A DNA stretch of 64,000 nucleotides from Mizuhopecten yessoensis (taxonomy: Eukaryota), in the NCBI RefSeq assembly GCF_002113885.1, contig NW_018403543.1, positions 1,106,145 to 1,170,144 of the forward strand. The letters are read 5' to 3'. Position numbers: made by a program. This document shows, piece after piece, positions 54,001 to 63,000 of this stretch (the first letter of the stretch is position 1; the number at the start of each line of letters is the position of its first letter).

Positions 54001-57000
54001 TAGCTCATTTAGTTACACTCGTAGGTTAGTTCTGGTAGAAGATATTTAAATGAAATTTGTATGGTGTCATCAATAATAACATACAATTAAGACGTTTGTA
54101 CGGTACCTACAATAATAATGTAAGAGGAATTACGTTTTAAAGACGTCTATAATTATGTACGACGAGTTCAGTTTTTACGACGTCTTCAATATTTATGTTT
54201 GATAAAAGATTTTCTACGACGGCATCGATAATAACGTAGAGGAATGATGTATGCACGACTTCTATAATAAAATAATGTTCGAGGAATAATATTTGAGCGC
54301 CGTCATCAATTAATACTTAGGAGTAATAACGTTTGAACATTCGGCAAAGATGCAGAAATAACTTTAAATTTTATCCGAATTGATTTTGCGATAGATATAT
54401 CTTACGTTATAGCATGTGACATGTCCCGGTGTGTGATTCTATGACGTGTCTATTGTAGTAGAATGCTGTATGCTTGAGAAAATTATATTATATTTACTGT
54501 CTTAAATGTATACGAATAATCGTTTACAACTCGGAGGAATTTAGAATCGTGCATGAAGGTGCAGCTTAGAGGGTTGGGAAGGTAACATTGAATTGGTTCA
54601 AAAGTCCTTACGTCTACCGTGGCACCTGTCCCGACCACTGTTATCCCACTGGCCACGTCTTGTATAGACACGGTGTTACCTGTAGCATGGAGCCTAACAC
54701 CTCGTCCAAGGACAGTGTGCTGGAGGAGAGGAGATAATTCCGTGACAAATGTTTAACAATAACAAAATCGATACGTTAAACGTCTTGTTCAAGCTATTCT
54801 TAATCTATTCTACCCATCAGAGATAATTTGATAATCGCAATCTACAGAGTGGTTTTGATTTCAGACAGCCACTAGAGCAAAACGTAAGCGATATATTGTA
54901 ATCTGTCTGTAAACAATTTATGAAGGAAATTTTCAGTAATCAGTTTATCTATTTTCATCTTGCTGAAGCACTAAATGTTGAATACTTCTAGATAACAACA
55001 CGTACGTAGGTAGGGCTTGCAAAGAAATGTAATCTATATTACAATTAACCTGATACAAGTTTTATACTTCATCTGTAGCTAAACTATTCTACTTACAAAT
55101 GGATGGTTGCCCAACATGTTTTCACTAAGATATGACATAAACTGCGTCTCAAGTTGCACAATTCCGTCAGTCAATGGAGCAAGGAATACTGATGCCGCGC
55201 CGGCCACCGGGTTCACCGCCGCAAGGGCGGCACTGACAGCCGCTGATACCGCCGACGAACCCCCTGCTGTCGCTGATGACTCTCCTCCTGTTGAGTGTGA
55301 CCCACTTGTCGCATGCGATCCTCCTGTCACTGGTTTGGGTGTATGTAAATGGGTTGACATTCCAGTCCTCCTTGTGTCTCTGGCTGTTCCCAATATTTTA
55401 GCAAGACTTCGGAAGTCATAACTATACACGCCACACACAAATAGTGCCAATATGTAAACTACAAAAACACAGCAAAGAGGTTCAGAAGTAAAATGTTACG
55501 ACTTGAATGAATCAGTCTTATGAAAAAAGATCAAAAGAAATAATTGAACTAATGCTTATTGGGTTATTTTTTACAGGAATGTTGTTAACATGGGTATCTT
55601 TATTAATTAATTAAATTAAAGTCTCAAAGTTCACAAACAAACAAAAATCCCCAGGAAAACATTAAATAAAACCTTCGTAATTTGAATGTGTTTACTGTAT
55701 ATACTTGTATATTATTTATATATACATTTTACATACTCGTTTTTGTTTGTAAACATATCTACTCAAACAAATGCAATTTTAATTAAACGAACTTCCCACA
55801 TATTTTTGTCTAAAGTTCTCGCTATTGTTAACATCATCACACTTTGACCTACTCATCACACTAGCTTACTAGGTTCTTATAAATGTAAATGTGACGGCAT
55901 TATAAAGAAATCAACACGAAAATAACTCCTGTAAAATCCTACAATCACAACGCTTCTATAATAAAAACAAATATTTCATTAAGCGTTTCAATCGTAACGC
56001 TTAATTATACAAAAAAAGTTTATGATTTTAAGCAACGGATAATGTAACACATTAAGCGTTTTTTGTACACTAAGCATTGTCATTTAGCGCTTATCTCGCT
56101 AACACCTTTCTATAACTATACTCGTATAGGTTAGAAATGATCCACCAAATGTCATTTTCTTTACTTTACAAACTTGTTTGTATCGACCGTTGTTACCCCT
56201 CTTCTCCCTGTGCGTCTACATAATCAAGTTTGTTTTTTTAAAAGTTGAAAATCTGTTGAAAATTAATTACGTTTATGACGTCTTACCTGTCAACCTCATC
56301 CTGGCAAGCCTTGTCACTGGGCTATCTATTGACTGAACTATATAAACACTCTTATATATCGCTGGGATCTGACAACTGATAAACTGGAAGGCCTAAGTAA
56401 GACTCTCGTCGAAACGAAACTTAACATTGTTTTGTTGAAACAAAAAATTTGTGTTCAATAATTATGGCAAAGAATTAATTGATATAGTTTCTGGTATATT
56501 TCCATGCTGCTAATGATTCTTTGTAATTTACTGTCCCGAATTCTGTATGTTAGAAAATGAAAGAATCAATAAAAAATGTAACCAATACATTTATTTCTTA
56601 GGATATTTGTGAAATTCCAATTGGTAAAATTCATTTTTAACATTTTTAACAATATGTTCAAACAACGAACGTCTAAACGGATATCACGTGAGAAAGGTTG
56701 TGTGTGTAGCGTAAGGCTTGATAAGAATTATAATCGTATCCTGTACATTACTTACAGAGTAAACTATTAAAGATGAATGCTCTGCTCGTTCTGAGTGTTG
56801 TTGTCAGCCTCTTCTGGACCACAGTCGGATTCACAGTTAAAAGGACAGGCGATAAGTATGATATTGAGAAGTCCATTTTTTTATATTTTTTTTTGCTTTC
56901 ACAGCCTTTCACAACAAATCTGTTGTCATTAAGTTGATATTGATCGGGTTTCTCAGCCTTGTACGATGCATTGCTATGATGATATTGGGGTTAATTGTTT

Positions 57001-60000: not shown

Positions 60001-63000
60001 TAGAGATCTCATTGGTTTTTGATTAATATTTTGTTTTACAGAGCTCATTTTGTTGTTATGTTAACATTCTGTTTTACAGAGCTCATTTTGTTGTTATGTT
60101 AACATTCTGTTTTACAGAGCTCATTTTGTTGTGATGTTAACGTTTTGTTTTACAGAGCTCATTTTGTTGTTATGTTAACATTCTGTTTTACAGAGCTCAT
60201 TTTGTTGTTATGTTAACATTCTGTTTTACAAAGCTCATTTTGTTGTGATGTTAACGTTTTGTTTTACAAAGCTCATTTTGTTGTGATGTTTTCATTCTGT
60301 TTAACAGAGCTCATTTTGTTGTGATGTTAACATTCTGTTTTACAAAGCTCATTTTGTTGTTATGTTATCATTCTGTTTTACAGAGCTCATTTTGTTGTTA
60401 TGTTCACCATTTGTTTAATAGAGCTCATTGCTACCGTTAGGTTGACTTTTATGTTTTATAGAGCTCATTGGTGCTGTAAGATCAATCCAACCAAAACGGT
60501 TGTAGATTCCCGAACCGTGACAGTCACTGTAGTCGTCCCAGTAAAACACACCCATCATTCCAGCTGTGGATTCCTGTGGCTCAGTCGATGCGGCAGTTCA
60601 TCATATACCACTGGGTAATTAAAATAGTTTTTACGTAGTATTTTCACCACCACATAGGTGTCTCTATAGCATGTGTAATTATATTTATTAGATGTCAAGG
60701 TAACGAAGATAAGTTACGAATTCACAGCAAACGGCAAAATCCTATTACATTTCCACATGACTCGTATTCAGTACATATTCGCGGGGGTTAAATTTCGCTG
60801 TGCACCCGAATCCCATGTGTCGTTCAAAGTATTTTGAGCGTCATTTTTTAAGGGTTTAACCTCAAAATATAGGTAAACCGTTTGAAAACACTGATCCTAA
60901 GCGTCCTCATCCACGAATGAGTGACCTCACTCGAAAGAAAATCAAATGTGTATGTACGTTTGTAGGAGTAAACTGTGATCAATTTATCACCTACCGTGTA
61001 CACATACATATGTTGTGGCCACTTATATGTAATTGTTGTTTTCACATGGACTGTCATGTTGTCCATTGCTGATCTGATTTGAGTTCATTTTAGCTTGCAT
61101 TACAGCGTTGGGTTAACGATATTTTTAACATGTGTGATAAGGTCCGTAAACGTGGTTAACCTTTTCGATAATTTCGCTGGTGCTTAGAATTCGTGGTTAT
61201 TAGTCAAAGCGCGAATATAGCGAAATTAAAACCCCCGCGAAATATAACCGCTATACATTAGTTCATCTTAACACTGTAAGAAAAGTAACAAGTGACATAT
61301 CATATTCTATCAACCGCGCTTACAACTTTAGGTACAAAACAGCGTACAGAGCGAGTTACAAAAGTAGGCTGGTACCAACAACCTGCCCTGACCAGCATCT
61401 GGTGTGCTGTAAAGACTACATAAAAGTTGCTGACCAGTGTTTGCGTAAGTAATGATATGGAACTAATGCTTGTGAAATATTTGATTTGACGAATTTTTTT
61501 TTAAATTACAATAAATAAACAGTACGATAAATAAACAAACAAATTAATTAGTTAGAAAGAAAAAACAGATAAATAAAACAAAACAAAATCCGTCCAAGAA
61601 CAACTTTGTGAATGTTTTTCAATGCGAAATAGTGTTAAATTTAACGAAAACGTTTGATCATTATTTTGTAATTACAGCATCTGCATCTGACATGATGTGA
61701 ATTATGTAGTAATGATGTAAAATATGTTCAAGTAACAAAAATATTTTTATTTTATTTAGCTCAAAGTCGACTCCCAGACATAAAAGACGACTTGCTGCAT
61801 TTGCACTCTGCAGGAATAGTTGTTGGTTAAAGAAAAAATAGAAAATACTGTAACAAGAAAATATTAAGTAAAAATTCGTGGGTTAAGAAAGGATTTGAAT
61901 CATTGTGACAAAGAAATAATAAAAATATATTTTAAACTTGAATTAGTATGTTGTTCTGCGTTTACTCATCAAATTTGTTTTATATTATCTTATCTATTTA
62001 TACGTCAATGTGACAAGATGATATTGTCCGTTTTACTCCAAATGAAAGTGAAAATACGGTTATATAATTTTTAAATTATAATTATGATATTTATGTCATA
62101 TTTACTGTACACAGCTCATGTGACAGAGAATTTACAATTATAACTCTGTTACCATTTGTAACTCTGTTACCCATCATATTCTATCACTTACGGGAAAGAC
62201 TATTTATATAAAAAAAAATATAAACTTTTATTCGTCCTTTACAATAAATTACACAGTATCAATTACCTGTATCCATATACACTTAAAATAGACATATCTA
62301 CATATATAAAACATAAAAACAGAGAAATGTGTTTTTGAAGTCCGGAAATCGAAGTTGAAAGAAGAGACAGAACAAGAATGGGAGGTGTTAATCAGGTCTA
62401 ATGTCTATTTTTTTCTCCATTTGATCTCCTTTTCTGACTGTGATATTAAGAACAAGACCATACACATTTTCGGCACACAAATTCTAAGGAGCCACACAAA
62501 CGAAAGGAAAGAGGCCAGAAATCCCCAACACAAAAGGGAAATGAAAGCACCAGCGATCTGAGACCGATAACAATTATAATTGGCAGACAATACAATCTCA
62601 TAGATTATAAAGGGAAGAAAATGAATTTCAGAATTTTTGAATGCTGGAAAATGAAAAATCAGAGTGTATCAATGGTAGACAATAAATTTCCATATTGCAT
62701 TAAAGGCAGACCATAAAATGTCATAGTCGGAATTCAGATCATGAGGTAACCGTACAATATCTTAAGCGTTGACTGGAGGTAGAAAATCATTTACTTAGTA
62801 GTTCACAATGAAATGACAATAGGACGCATTTATCGAGAAATTCTAATAGTTAAAACGGACACTGAAGAAGTGAGCTAACAGTTACCTGTAATCATCATAA
62901 AGGGAGGAGTCTCACATACTGACAGAAGGAAATCAAACGATTGTGAAGGTTATAGTTTTATGTTTTATTTCATTTTCGAGGCAAATACATGTGATTAGCC

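What the first reader, a model, noticed from the sequence alone, without database searches (positions are those of the whole stretch)
56773..61830. Tandem pair of small secreted 8-cysteine EMI-like proteins, invisible as whole ORFs
Seen: two 4-exon genes share intron phases 2,2,1, a signal peptide, the pattern WCC-x-C-x-C-x-CPxxHLVCCxxY(V/I)KxxDQCL, and a C-terminal tail ending AG(L/I)(I/VV)G*. The sequence between cysteines is highly diverged. Established: EMI domains end in CCxG(Y/W)...C and normally sit at the N-terminus of large multidomain proteins. Inference: this is a stand-alone variant with an extra Cys pair and may be an undescribed mollusc secreted family (shell matrix, byssus/mucus or immune). 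I do not recognise it.
Basis: partly seen in the sequence, partly recalled or inferred. Interest (0 to 1): 0.68.

Follow-up and report, generated by a model that had tools for sequence, protein, structure and literature searches.

The report
Scallop cluster of small EMI-like secreted proteins
This stretch of Yesso scallop DNA holds three neighbouring genes for small, secreted, cysteine-rich proteins that look like a free-standing version of the EMI domain of larger matrix and cell-surface proteins; relatives occur in other scallops and in oysters, and nobody has yet studied what they do.

Summary
Both four-exon genes exist with intron phases 2,2,1. Each exon matches a public Mizuhopecten yessoensis protein at 100% identity: LOC110449086 (147 aa) and LOC110448601 (171 aa).

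New points:
- A third paralogue lies tail-to-tail on the minus strand (exon 3 63469-63357, exon 4 63038-62995). Its first two exons lie beyond the window end.
- The family has three types (A, B, C) in three scallop species. Type C also occurs in four oyster species, where the two middle cysteines are missing.
- All 14 members have a basic motif 8-11 residues before the first Cys and end in Gly.

EMI membership is not shown. Pfam EMI is sub-threshold in 1 of 14 proteins (E 0.2, 12.9 bits against a cut-off of 25), and exon-by-exon scans find nothing. An EMI-like fold is plausible. The AlphaFold2 model of the type B protein (pLDDT 72) shows a long beta-hairpin, small C-terminal strands and a helix. 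The Atlas structure neighbours are MEGF10/11, Draper and EGFL7, at TM 0.38-0.50.

No paper names these genes. Function is unknown. My best guess is a soluble extracellular binding module, possibly convertase-processed. I score it as a modestly interesting new variant of a known kind.

The parts
56773..56855 (+). Gene 1 (type A, = LOC110449086) exon 1: start codon, hydrophobic signal-like N-terminus and the K-R motif. Ends in phase 2.
   Evidence: P0009 residues 1-27, 100% identity.
57100..57285 (+). Gene 1 exon 2: N-W-C-C start, first long strand region, and the two middle cysteines.
57625..57743 (+). Gene 1 exon 3: second strand region and the C-P-x-x-H-L-V-C-C-x-G-Y...C motif. Ends in phase 1.
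57990..58045 (+). Gene 1 exon 4: C-terminal helix tail ending AGLIG, then stop TAG. An AATAAA lies at 58086-58091.
59202..59380 (+). Gene 2 (type B, = LOC110448601) exon 1: signal-like N-terminus and a conserved helical pro-region ending R-E-S-R. Phase 2. An alternative phase-2 donor after 59314 is not used by the public model.
   Evidence: (P0006 residues 1-60, 100% identity).
60023..60429 (+). 38-bp minisatellite (10.7 copies) in intron 1 of gene 2. It repeats the acceptor site and the first bases of exon 2.
   Evidence: read.
60462..60614 (+). Gene 2 exon 2: H-W-C-C start, strand region and the middle cysteine pair.
61332..61444 (+). Gene 2 exon 3: C-P-D-Q-H-L-V-C-C-K-D-Y...C motif. Ends in phase 1.
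61760..61830 (+). Gene 2 exon 4: helix tail ending AGIVVG, then stop TAA.
63357..63469 (-). Gene 3 (type C) exon 3, with AG acceptor at 63471-63470 and GT donor at 63356-63355. No M. yessoensis type C protein was among the database hits.
   Evidence: (90% identity to P0007 and P0008, E 1.9e-22).
62995..63038 (-). Gene 3 exon 4: tail L-D-D-L-H-E-L-T-T-Q-L-V-G, then stop TAA. Exons 1 and 2 lie beyond position 64000.
   Evidence: 13 of 13 residues identical to P0007.

Best explanation
The window holds a tandem cluster of three paralogous four-exon genes of the Yesso scallop. They belong to a small family found so far in scallops and oysters.

Each gene encodes a protein of about 150-170 residues, built as follows:
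- A signal peptide.
- In types B and C, a conserved helical pro-region.
- A basic motif (K-R, R-E-S-R or [KR]-L-V-R) 8-11 residues before the first cysteine.
- A disulfide-rich module of about 85-100 residues.
- A short amphipathic helix that always ends in glycine.

The module is most likely a divergent, free-standing EMI-like domain. It has two long antiparallel strands, joined at the tip by a cysteine-bridged loop that oysters have lost. It closes with a small CC-x-x-Y...C element like the end of EMI.

Shown:
- The gene structures.
- The paralogy.
- Conservation across species.
- The cysteine framework.

Inferred:
- Secretion.
- The EMI-like fold.
- The function, which I take to be a soluble extracellular binding module (a ligand or matrix adaptor that engages a conserved partner through the strongly conserved C-terminal third), not a bulk structural material.
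For: Gene models and identity:
- Each exon maps at 100% identity to P0009 and P0006.
- Phases were read from the sequence.

Family:
- The exon-3 profile found 8 proteins among 11 candidates.
- The full-length profile found 13 among 2562 candidates.
- The widened profile found 14 at E<=10 among 2802 candidates. Nine were full-length family members, one of them new (P0020). Five were 80-90-aa read-throughs of oyster exon 1 into its intron. These place the first intron in oysters at the same spot as in scallops.
- Type C is 44% identical between scallop and oyster, E 1e-36.
- The tree gives clades C (99/99) and A (100/99), with A joined to B.

Framework and motifs:
- The framework is CC-x29/33-C-x7/14-C-x25/27-C-x6-CC-x9-C in 10 of 14 members and CC-x40-C-x6-CC-x9-C in 4 of 14.
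- The basic motif is present in 14 of 14.
- The C-terminal Gly is present in 14 of 14.

EMI-like fold:
- Pfam EMI aligns over profile positions 2-68 of 69 in P0006, E 0.2.
- The AlphaFold2 model of P0006 has mean pLDDT 72.2 (74-85 over the core), with strands 70-95 and 101-126, three short strands and a helix at 150-165.
- Of the 10 Atlas structure rows, 2 list PF07546 EMI on 97% of members, and 6 are MEGF10, MEGF11 or Draper clusters. TM by query is 0.38-0.50.
- The third row of the Atlas feature search for P0009 is an EMI cluster, at 0.78.
- Hao et al. 2025 (PMC11949838, passages read) describe EMI as a single N-terminal cysteine-rich domain with three disulfides, whose O-fucose sites sit on two antiparallel strands, with an N-W-C start.
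- The NimA paper (PMC13076899, passages) shows that an EMI domain mediates adhesion.
Against: - The Pfam EMI score is far below the gathering cut-off, and 13 of 14 members give no EMI hit at E<=10.
- None of the 7 exon pieces gives an EMI hit.
- The profile search of PDB sequences found 0 hits at E<=10.
- Foldseek against the PDB gave 0 matches at E<=0.001. The best were the beta-hairpin stems of pore-forming toxins and FliF rings, at E 0.06-0.8, which I read as matches to any long hairpin.
- The model of the gene 1 protein is poor (pLDDT 59.1, pTM 0.23).
- The Atlas TM values are at or under 0.5. That output does not say which part of the large MEGF or Draper proteins was aligned, so it could be EGF repeats and not EMI.
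- The cysteine framework differs from EMI: a doubled first Cys, an extra Cys 6 residues before CC, and Gly after CC-x only in type A.
- Nothing here shows expression, secretion, disulfides or a partner.
Confidence: 0.55

Rival explanations
1. The proteins are precursors of a processed secreted signal, like a hormone or cytokine. A furin-type or prohormone convertase cuts after the conserved basic motif and releases a folded cysteine-rich protein of about 100 residues. The invariant C-terminal Gly is used for amidation. This is compatible with an EMI-like fold. It differs from the main reading in what the product does.
For: - A basic motif lies 8-11 residues before the first Cys in 14 of 14 members: K-R in 4, R-E-S-R in 4, [KR]-L-V-R in 6.
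- The C-terminal residue is Gly in 14 of 14.
- Exon 1 encodes exactly the signal, the pro-region and the motif.
- Type C is conserved between oysters and scallops, pro-region included, as expected for a ligand with a conserved receptor.
- The convertase and amidation rules are from my own knowledge, not from a call.
Against: - The motifs are short and common.
- Scallop type C has K, not R, at the fourth position before the cut.
- The pro-region is itself well conserved, which a mere spacer would not be.
- Amidation of a 100-residue protein is unusual.
- No peptidomic or expression data were available.
Confidence: 0.2
2. The proteins are structural or matrix components of a bivalve biomaterial (shell matrix, byssus or mucus), or fast-evolving immune effectors.
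For: - They are small, secreted-looking and cysteine-rich, and they form a tandemly duplicated cluster.
- Type A sits on a long branch (2.71 changes per column) and type B is duplicated again on a second scaffold, as lineage-specific effector families often are.
Against: - No repeats, low-complexity stretches or strongly biased composition are visible in the 14 sequences.
- Type C appears once per species in each of the two scallop and four oyster species among the hits, and it is well conserved.
- No paper with 'EMI domain' and scallop was found.
- The 5 papers holding 'EMI domain' and Crassostrea are, by title, on other subjects (listing only).
- Proteome lists sit in supplements, which were closed, so absence from them was not checked.
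Confidence: 0.1
3. The resemblance to EMI is convergent. The module is a fold of its own that merely shares a WC start, a CC-x-x-aromatic...C end and a long hairpin with EMI.
For: - No search reached significance for EMI.
- The nearest Atlas clusters by features are two unnamed families, rotifer 'Secreted protein' at 0.91 and a mollusc 'hypothetical protein' at 0.90, not EMI.
- The cysteine framework differs from EMI.
Against: - The only Pfam alignment spanning the module is to EMI, and it is nearly full length.
- 8 of 10 structure neighbours are EMI-bearing families.
- The motif order N-W-C ... aromatic-rich strand ... CC-x-G-Y ... C in type A follows EMI. For EMI, the N-W-C start is from PMC11949838 and the C-terminal motif is recalled.
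Confidence: 0.15
4. The proteins are hydrophobin-like amphiphiles, as the UniRef name of paralogue P0010 suggests.
For: - The name 'Hydrophobin' is attached to P0010.
- There are eight cysteines, including two adjacent pairs.
Against: - No hydrophobin family appears in the Pfam scans of any of the 14 proteins at E<=10.
- The order here is CC-C-C-C-CC-C. Fungal hydrophobins have C-CC-C-C-CC-C (recalled).
- The one paper holding 'hydrophobin' and 'yessoensis' concerns plastic-degrading fungi (listing and abstract).
Confidence: 0.02

Closest known systems
EMI domain (Pfam PF07546) of EMILINs, multimerins, EGFL7, MEGF10/11, PEAR1, Draper and NimA
   Same: - Extracellular, cysteine-rich and present once per protein at the N-terminal end.
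- W-C start (N-W-C in type A).
- Two long antiparallel strands.
- Closes with CC-x-x-aromatic ... C.
- Weak but nearly full-length Pfam alignment.
- Structure neighbours at TM 0.38-0.50.
   Different: - Below the Pfam cut-off in all 14 members.
- Framework of 8 Cys (or 6 in oysters), with a doubled first Cys and an extra Cys six residues before CC.
- Not followed by coiled coil, C1q, collagen or EGF repeats, only by a tail of 15-24 residues.
- Preceded in types B and C by a conserved pro-region with a basic motif.
Small EMI-plus-EGF proteins: the Atlas cluster 'GD13445' (136 aa; EMI 97%, EGF_PEAR1L 98%) and EGFL7 (235-aa cluster)
   Same: Short secreted proteins whose main element is an EMI-type module. 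They appear among the structure neighbours (rows 4 and 8) and the feature neighbours (row 3).
   Different: Those carry recognisable EMI and EGF Pfam domains. The scallop proteins carry neither at threshold. Similarity scores are only leads: 0.78 by features and TM 0.40-0.44 by structure.
Secreted Nimrod B proteins of Drosophila (e.g. NimB4)
   Same: Small secreted relatives of EMI/EGF-type receptors that act as soluble binding factors (PMC8419693; only the title and the start of the abstract were seen in the listing).
   Different: From recall, NimB proteins consist of NIM repeats and lack an EMI domain. No sequence comparison was made here.
Fungal hydrophobins
   Same: Small, secreted, with eight cysteines including two adjacent pairs. 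One paralogue carries this name in UniRef.
   Different: The order of the cysteines differs (against the recalled hydrophobin pattern), and no Pfam hydrophobin hit was found.

Membership tests
EMI domain (PF07546) | Score at or above the Pfam gathering cut-off (25 bits). | tested here: not met
   The best score is 12.9 bits, E 0.2, in P0006. 13 of 14 full-length members have no EMI hit at E<=10. 0 of 7 exon pieces have one.
EMI domain (PF07546) | A single copy at the N-terminal end of a secreted protein (PMC11949838, passage). | tested here: met
   There is one module per protein, directly after the signal and pro-region, in 14 of 14 members.
EMI domain (PF07546) | Six conserved cysteines forming three disulfides (PMC11949838), with a W-C start and a CC-x-G-aromatic ... 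C end (the end motif is recalled). | tested here: inconclusive
   - CC followed two residues later by Y or F, and a final C nine residues after CC, occur in 14 of 14 members.
- W-C start in 8 of 14 (types A and B). Type C has L-C or V-C.
- Gly after CC-x only in the 4 type A members.
- Cysteine number is 8 or 6, in a different arrangement.
- Disulfide pairing could not be read because model coordinates are not exposed.
EMI domain (PF07546) | EMI fold: antiparallel strands with a compact cysteine-rich end. | tested here: inconclusive
   - The model of P0006 (pLDDT 72) has the expected elements.
- Atlas neighbours are EMI-bearing families, but TM is 0.38-0.50.
- The PDB Foldseek search returned no EMI structure and nothing at E<=0.001.
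- No AlphaFold DB library was available.
EMI domain endowed (EDEN) and MEGF/Draper-type proteins | EMI followed by large regions: coiled coil with C1q, collagen, or EGF repeats with a transmembrane segment. | tested here: not met
   The proteins end 15-24 residues after the last Cys. The search among longer proteins (71-2000 aa) with the exon-3 profile found only proteins of 147-171 aa. That search states that finding none is weak evidence.
Fungal hydrophobins | Pfam hydrophobin domain and the C-CC-C-C-CC-C pattern (pattern recalled). | tested here: not met
   No hydrophobin family appears at E<=10 in any of the 14 proteins. The pattern here is CC-C-C-C-CC-C.
Convertase-processed, amidated secreted precursors | Signal peptide, basic cleavage motif before the mature part, and C-terminal Gly as amide donor (rules recalled). 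| tested here: inconclusive
   The motifs are present in 14 of 14 members. Actual cleavage and amidation are not testable with these tools.

The most novel reading that the evidence does not exclude
The family is a bivalve invention in which an EMI-type adhesion domain was cut loose from its large parent and turned into a processed, secreted signalling protein. The pro-region would be removed at the conserved basic motif and the C-terminus amidated. The ancient, slowly evolving type C would act as a ligand for a conserved receptor. Types A and B would be scallop-specific offshoots with new specificities. This would be the first EMI-derived hormone- or cytokine-like ligand.
Probability: 0.12. 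Interest if true: 0.65.

Novelty: new variant of a known kind. Interest (0 to 1): 0.38.

Why it matters
The literature read here describes EMI domains as the N-terminal heads of large matrix proteins and engulfment or adhesion receptors. A conserved, free-standing, remodelled EMI-like module with its own pro-region and tail would show that this domain can work alone. It would also offer a small, expressible model for how EMI-type modules bind partners.

For bivalve biology, this adds a named candidate family to the large pool of 'uncharacterized' secreted proteins of two farmed groups, scallops and oysters. It has one slowly evolving member and two scallop-specific offshoots.

The practical value is modest until expression and a binding partner are known.

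Tried and rejected
- **Exon-by-exon Pfam scan.** Only a chance-level Pneumovirus NS1 hit (E 0.06).
- **Exhaustive phmmer search of 1.84 billion representatives with gene 1 exon 2.** It returned 2 hits. One is the type A representative. The other is a 1045-aa repeat protein (P0014) matched over 28 residues in 5 repeats. It lacks the cysteine motifs, and I rejected it as spurious.
- **PDB sequence profile search.** 0 hits.
- **Foldseek against the PDB with the P0006 model.** Only long-hairpin look-alikes (pore-forming toxin stems, flagellar rings) at E 0.06 or worse. 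I rejected these as matches to hairpin geometry.
- **The gene 1 protein model.** Too poor (pLDDT 59) to search with, so I did not send it.
- **Atlas feature search restricted to named clusters, for P0006 58-171.** No usable hit.
- **Homodimer test of P0006 residues 58-171.** No verdict (score 0.01 against a mark of 0.32). It says nothing either way.
- **Literature searches.**
  - 'EMI domain' with scallop: 0 papers.
  - 12 locus names: 0 papers.
  - 'EMI domain' with 'CCxGY': 0 papers.
  - 'hydrophobin' with 'yessoensis': 1 unrelated paper.
  - A broad six-term search returned 14,068 papers, and none of the 25 listed holds 'EMI domain'.
- **A further copy at 4875-4867 (minus).** This lone WCC hit has no family context in tblastn, so I rejected it.
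- **Left out on purpose.** Full-length work used the public proteins that the exon search returned.
- **Not checked.**
  - Metagenome and viral contig collections (closed).
  - Supplements of proteome and transcriptome papers (closed).
  - Any mollusc genome DNA other than this window (no such collection on hand).

Full report
**What is in the sequence**

I read 56000-64000 on both strands. I checked each proposed exon by translation and by tblastn of database proteins against the window.

Gene 1 (+ strand):
- Exons 56773-56855, 57100-57285, 57625-57743 and 57990-58045.
- Lengths 83, 186, 119 and 56 nt, giving intron phases 2, 2, 1.
- All introns are GT..AG, and an AATAAA lies 41 nt after the stop.

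Gene 2 (+ strand):
- Exons 59202-59380, 60462-60614, 61332-61444 and 61760-61830.
- Lengths 179, 153, 113 and 71 nt, with the same phases.

- W-C-C at the start of exon 2.
- C-P-x-x-H-L-V-C-C-x-x-Y-(V/I)-K-x-x-D-Q-C-L in exon 3.
- Tails ending AGLIG and AGIVVG.

The region holds no N. The window's N runs are at 14483-14845, 15108-15808 and 17121, and I left them alone.

**A third copy**

A six-frame motif scan found the exon-3 motif a third time, on the minus strand.
- Read in that direction, there is an exon 63469-63357 with an AG acceptor and a GT donor in the same phases.
- A last exon, 63038-62995, ends L-V-G and then stop.
- These two exons are 90% and 100% identical to the matching parts of a 166-aa Ylistrum balloti protein.
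- Exons 1-2 of this gene are not in the window.
- No other copy scores below E 0.1 in the remaining 56 kb.

So this is a cluster of at least three genes, the last one tail-to-tail with gene 2.

**Handling of the spliced models**

- I searched exon by exon. Pfam on seven exon translations gave no relevant hit.
After I extended the first row to a contiguous 40-aa window stretch, it was accepted.
- It found 8 proteins among 11 candidates, all from scallops.
- Two of them, LOC110449086 (147 aa, P0009) and LOC110448601 (171 aa, P0006) of Mizuhopecten yessoensis, match the window exon for exon at 100%.

The window is therefore Yesso scallop DNA, and both genes are already public gene models labelled 'uncharacterized protein'. 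All full-length analyses below used these public proteins and their relatives.

**Exon 1 of gene 2**

Two phase-2 donors are possible, after 59314 and after 59380.
- The public model uses the later one.
- The stretch between the two donors is conserved in the Pecten maximus, Y. balloti and second M. yessoensis B-type proteins.
- The same D-x-L-P ... basic motif recurs in type C down to oysters.

I therefore take 59202-59380 as exon 1.

**The family**

Two further profile searches were run.
- The first found 13 proteins among 2562 candidates.
- The second found 14 at E<=10 among 2802 candidates.

Together they give 14 full-length members.

| Type | Length | Species |
|---|---|---|
| A | 147-153 aa | M. 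yessoensis (two), P. maximus, Y. balloti |
| B | 168-171 aa | the same three species, two in M. yessoensis |
| C | 146-166 aa | P. maximus, Y. balloti, Saccostrea cucullata, S. echinata, Ostrea edulis, Crassostrea angulata |

- Five more hits of 80-90 aa from unnamed records are oyster exon 1 read on into the intron. They show that the first intron sits at the same place in oysters.
- The exhaustive search with gene 1 exon 2 found only the type A representative and one spurious repeat protein.
- Pairwise, A against B aligns only over the last 41 residues (E 6e-9). B against C aligns over 140 residues (30% identity, E 1e-15). Scallop C against oyster C gives 44% identity, E 1e-36.
- In a maximum-likelihood tree of all 14 rows, C and A are each well supported (99/99 and 100/99). 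A sits with B on a long branch. The root is arbitrary, and the tool warns of long-branch joins.

I read type C as the old, slowly evolving member. Types A and B look like scallop offshoots, but the word-based searches cannot show that oysters lack them.

**Anatomy of the proteins**

- All 14 start with a hydrophobic stretch (mean Kyte-Doolittle 2.4-3.2 over 12 residues). I take this as a signal peptide, although no predictor was available.
- Types B and C then have a conserved region of 30-45 residues, predicted helical in P0006.
- All 14 have a basic motif 8-11 residues before the first Cys: K-R in A, R-E-S-R in B, [KR]-L-V-R in C.
- The module has the framework CC-x29/33-C-x7/14-C-x25/27-C-x6-CC-x9-C in the ten scallop proteins and CC-x40-C-x6-CC-x9-C in the four oyster proteins.
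- The oyster proteins lack exactly the two middle cysteines and the loop between them. This fits those two cysteines bonding to each other at the tip of a hairpin (inference).
- All 14 end with a tail of 15-24 residues, predicted helical, whose last residue is Gly.

**Is it an EMI domain?**

For:
- Pfam EMI aligns with P0006 residues 62-141 over profile positions 2-68 of 69.
- The AlphaFold2 model of P0006, built on the 14-row alignment, has mean pLDDT 72.2. It shows two long antiparallel strands (70-95, 101-126), three short strands around the CC motif and a helix at 150-165.
- The Atlas's own model of P0006 has MEGF10/11, Draper, EGFL7 and a small EMI-plus-EGF cluster as 8 of its 10 neighbour rows.
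- An EMI cluster is the third row of the feature search for P0009.
- In passages I read, Hao et al. 2025 (PMC11949838) describe EMI as follows. It is a single, N-terminal, cysteine-rich domain with three disulfides. Its first tryptic peptide begins N-W-C, and its modified threonines sit on two antiparallel strands.

Against:
- The Pfam score is 12.9 bits against a cut-off of 25, and it appears in only 1 of 14 proteins.
- The PDB sequence and fold searches found nothing usable.
- The Atlas TM values are 0.38-0.50, and the aligned part of the large neighbours is not stated.
- The model of the gene 1 protein is poor (pLDDT 59.1).
- The cysteine framework is not the EMI one.

I conclude 'EMI-like, probably derived from EMI, membership not demonstrated'.

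The UniRef name 'Hydrophobin' on paralogue P0010 has no support.

**How it most likely works**

- Shown: three real-looking paralogous genes, a conserved cysteine framework and conservation across two bivalve orders.
- Inferred: secretion, and a compact disulfide-locked hairpin module.
- The most conserved surface is the last third of the protein: the aromatic-rich strand, C-P-x-x-H-(L/I)-V-C-C-x-x-Y, and the tail. It is nearly invariant in type C from oysters to scallops.

That pattern suits a module that binds a conserved partner. EMI domains do this in adhesion and multimer assembly (PMC13076899 passages; PMC11949838 passages). It suits a bulk material much less, because there are no repeats or biased composition.

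The conserved basic motif and terminal Gly allow a second reading, in which the protein is a processed and amidated signal. I keep that as the main rival and as the most novel case.

**What stayed open**

- A homodimer test gave no verdict.
- Transcripts, tissue of expression, processing, disulfides and partners were not testable here.
- No paper in the searchable library holds any of 12 locus names or links EMI domains to scallops.
- Supplements, where such genes would be listed, were closed.

**Verdict**

The family is public as sequence but unstudied. This is a new variant of a known kind, of modest interest.

Noticed in passing
window 60023-60429 (+): A 38-bp minisatellite of 10.7 copies (91% matches) lies inside intron 1 of gene 2. 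Its unit repeats the true 3' splice site and the first bases of exon 2, so about ten decoy acceptors sit just upstream of the real one at 60460-60461 (read).
   Followed up: partly
window 36335-38560 (+): An uninterrupted 741-aa reading frame carries Pfam Mab-21 nucleotidyltransferase (E 4.2e-10) and Mab-21_C (E 1.8e-13) domains. It is probably an intronless cGAS-like gene with a long C-terminal extension.
   Followed up: partly
window 14483-14845, 15108-15808, 17121: These are N runs. The bases between the first two runs translate as a simple T/H/R/Q-rich repeat in several frames.
   Followed up: no
window 31459-31920 and 32322-32738 (-): Two open frames sit in the most GC-rich part of the window (0.446 at 30001-32000). 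Each contains an internally repeated segment, and neither has a Pfam hit. They may be a repeat element.
   Followed up: no
not in the window: a second M. yessoensis contig of 790,838 bp (proteins P0010, P0016): A second locus in the same species carries another type A and another type B gene. P0010 is 82% identical to the gene 1 protein. The type A copy is labelled 'Hydrophobin' in UniRef, which the Pfam scans do not support.
   Followed up: partly
not in the window: Atlas clusters: The nearest Atlas cluster by features (0.91) is an unnamed 'Secreted protein' family of about 173 aa from rotifers, which also heads the structure list at TM 0.42. It may be a distant relative outside molluscs. No sequences were available to test this.
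   Followed up: no
window 55079-55495 (-): A 138-aa open frame just upstream of the cluster has a Ser/Gly/Ala/Thr-rich middle and no Pfam hit.
   Followed up: no
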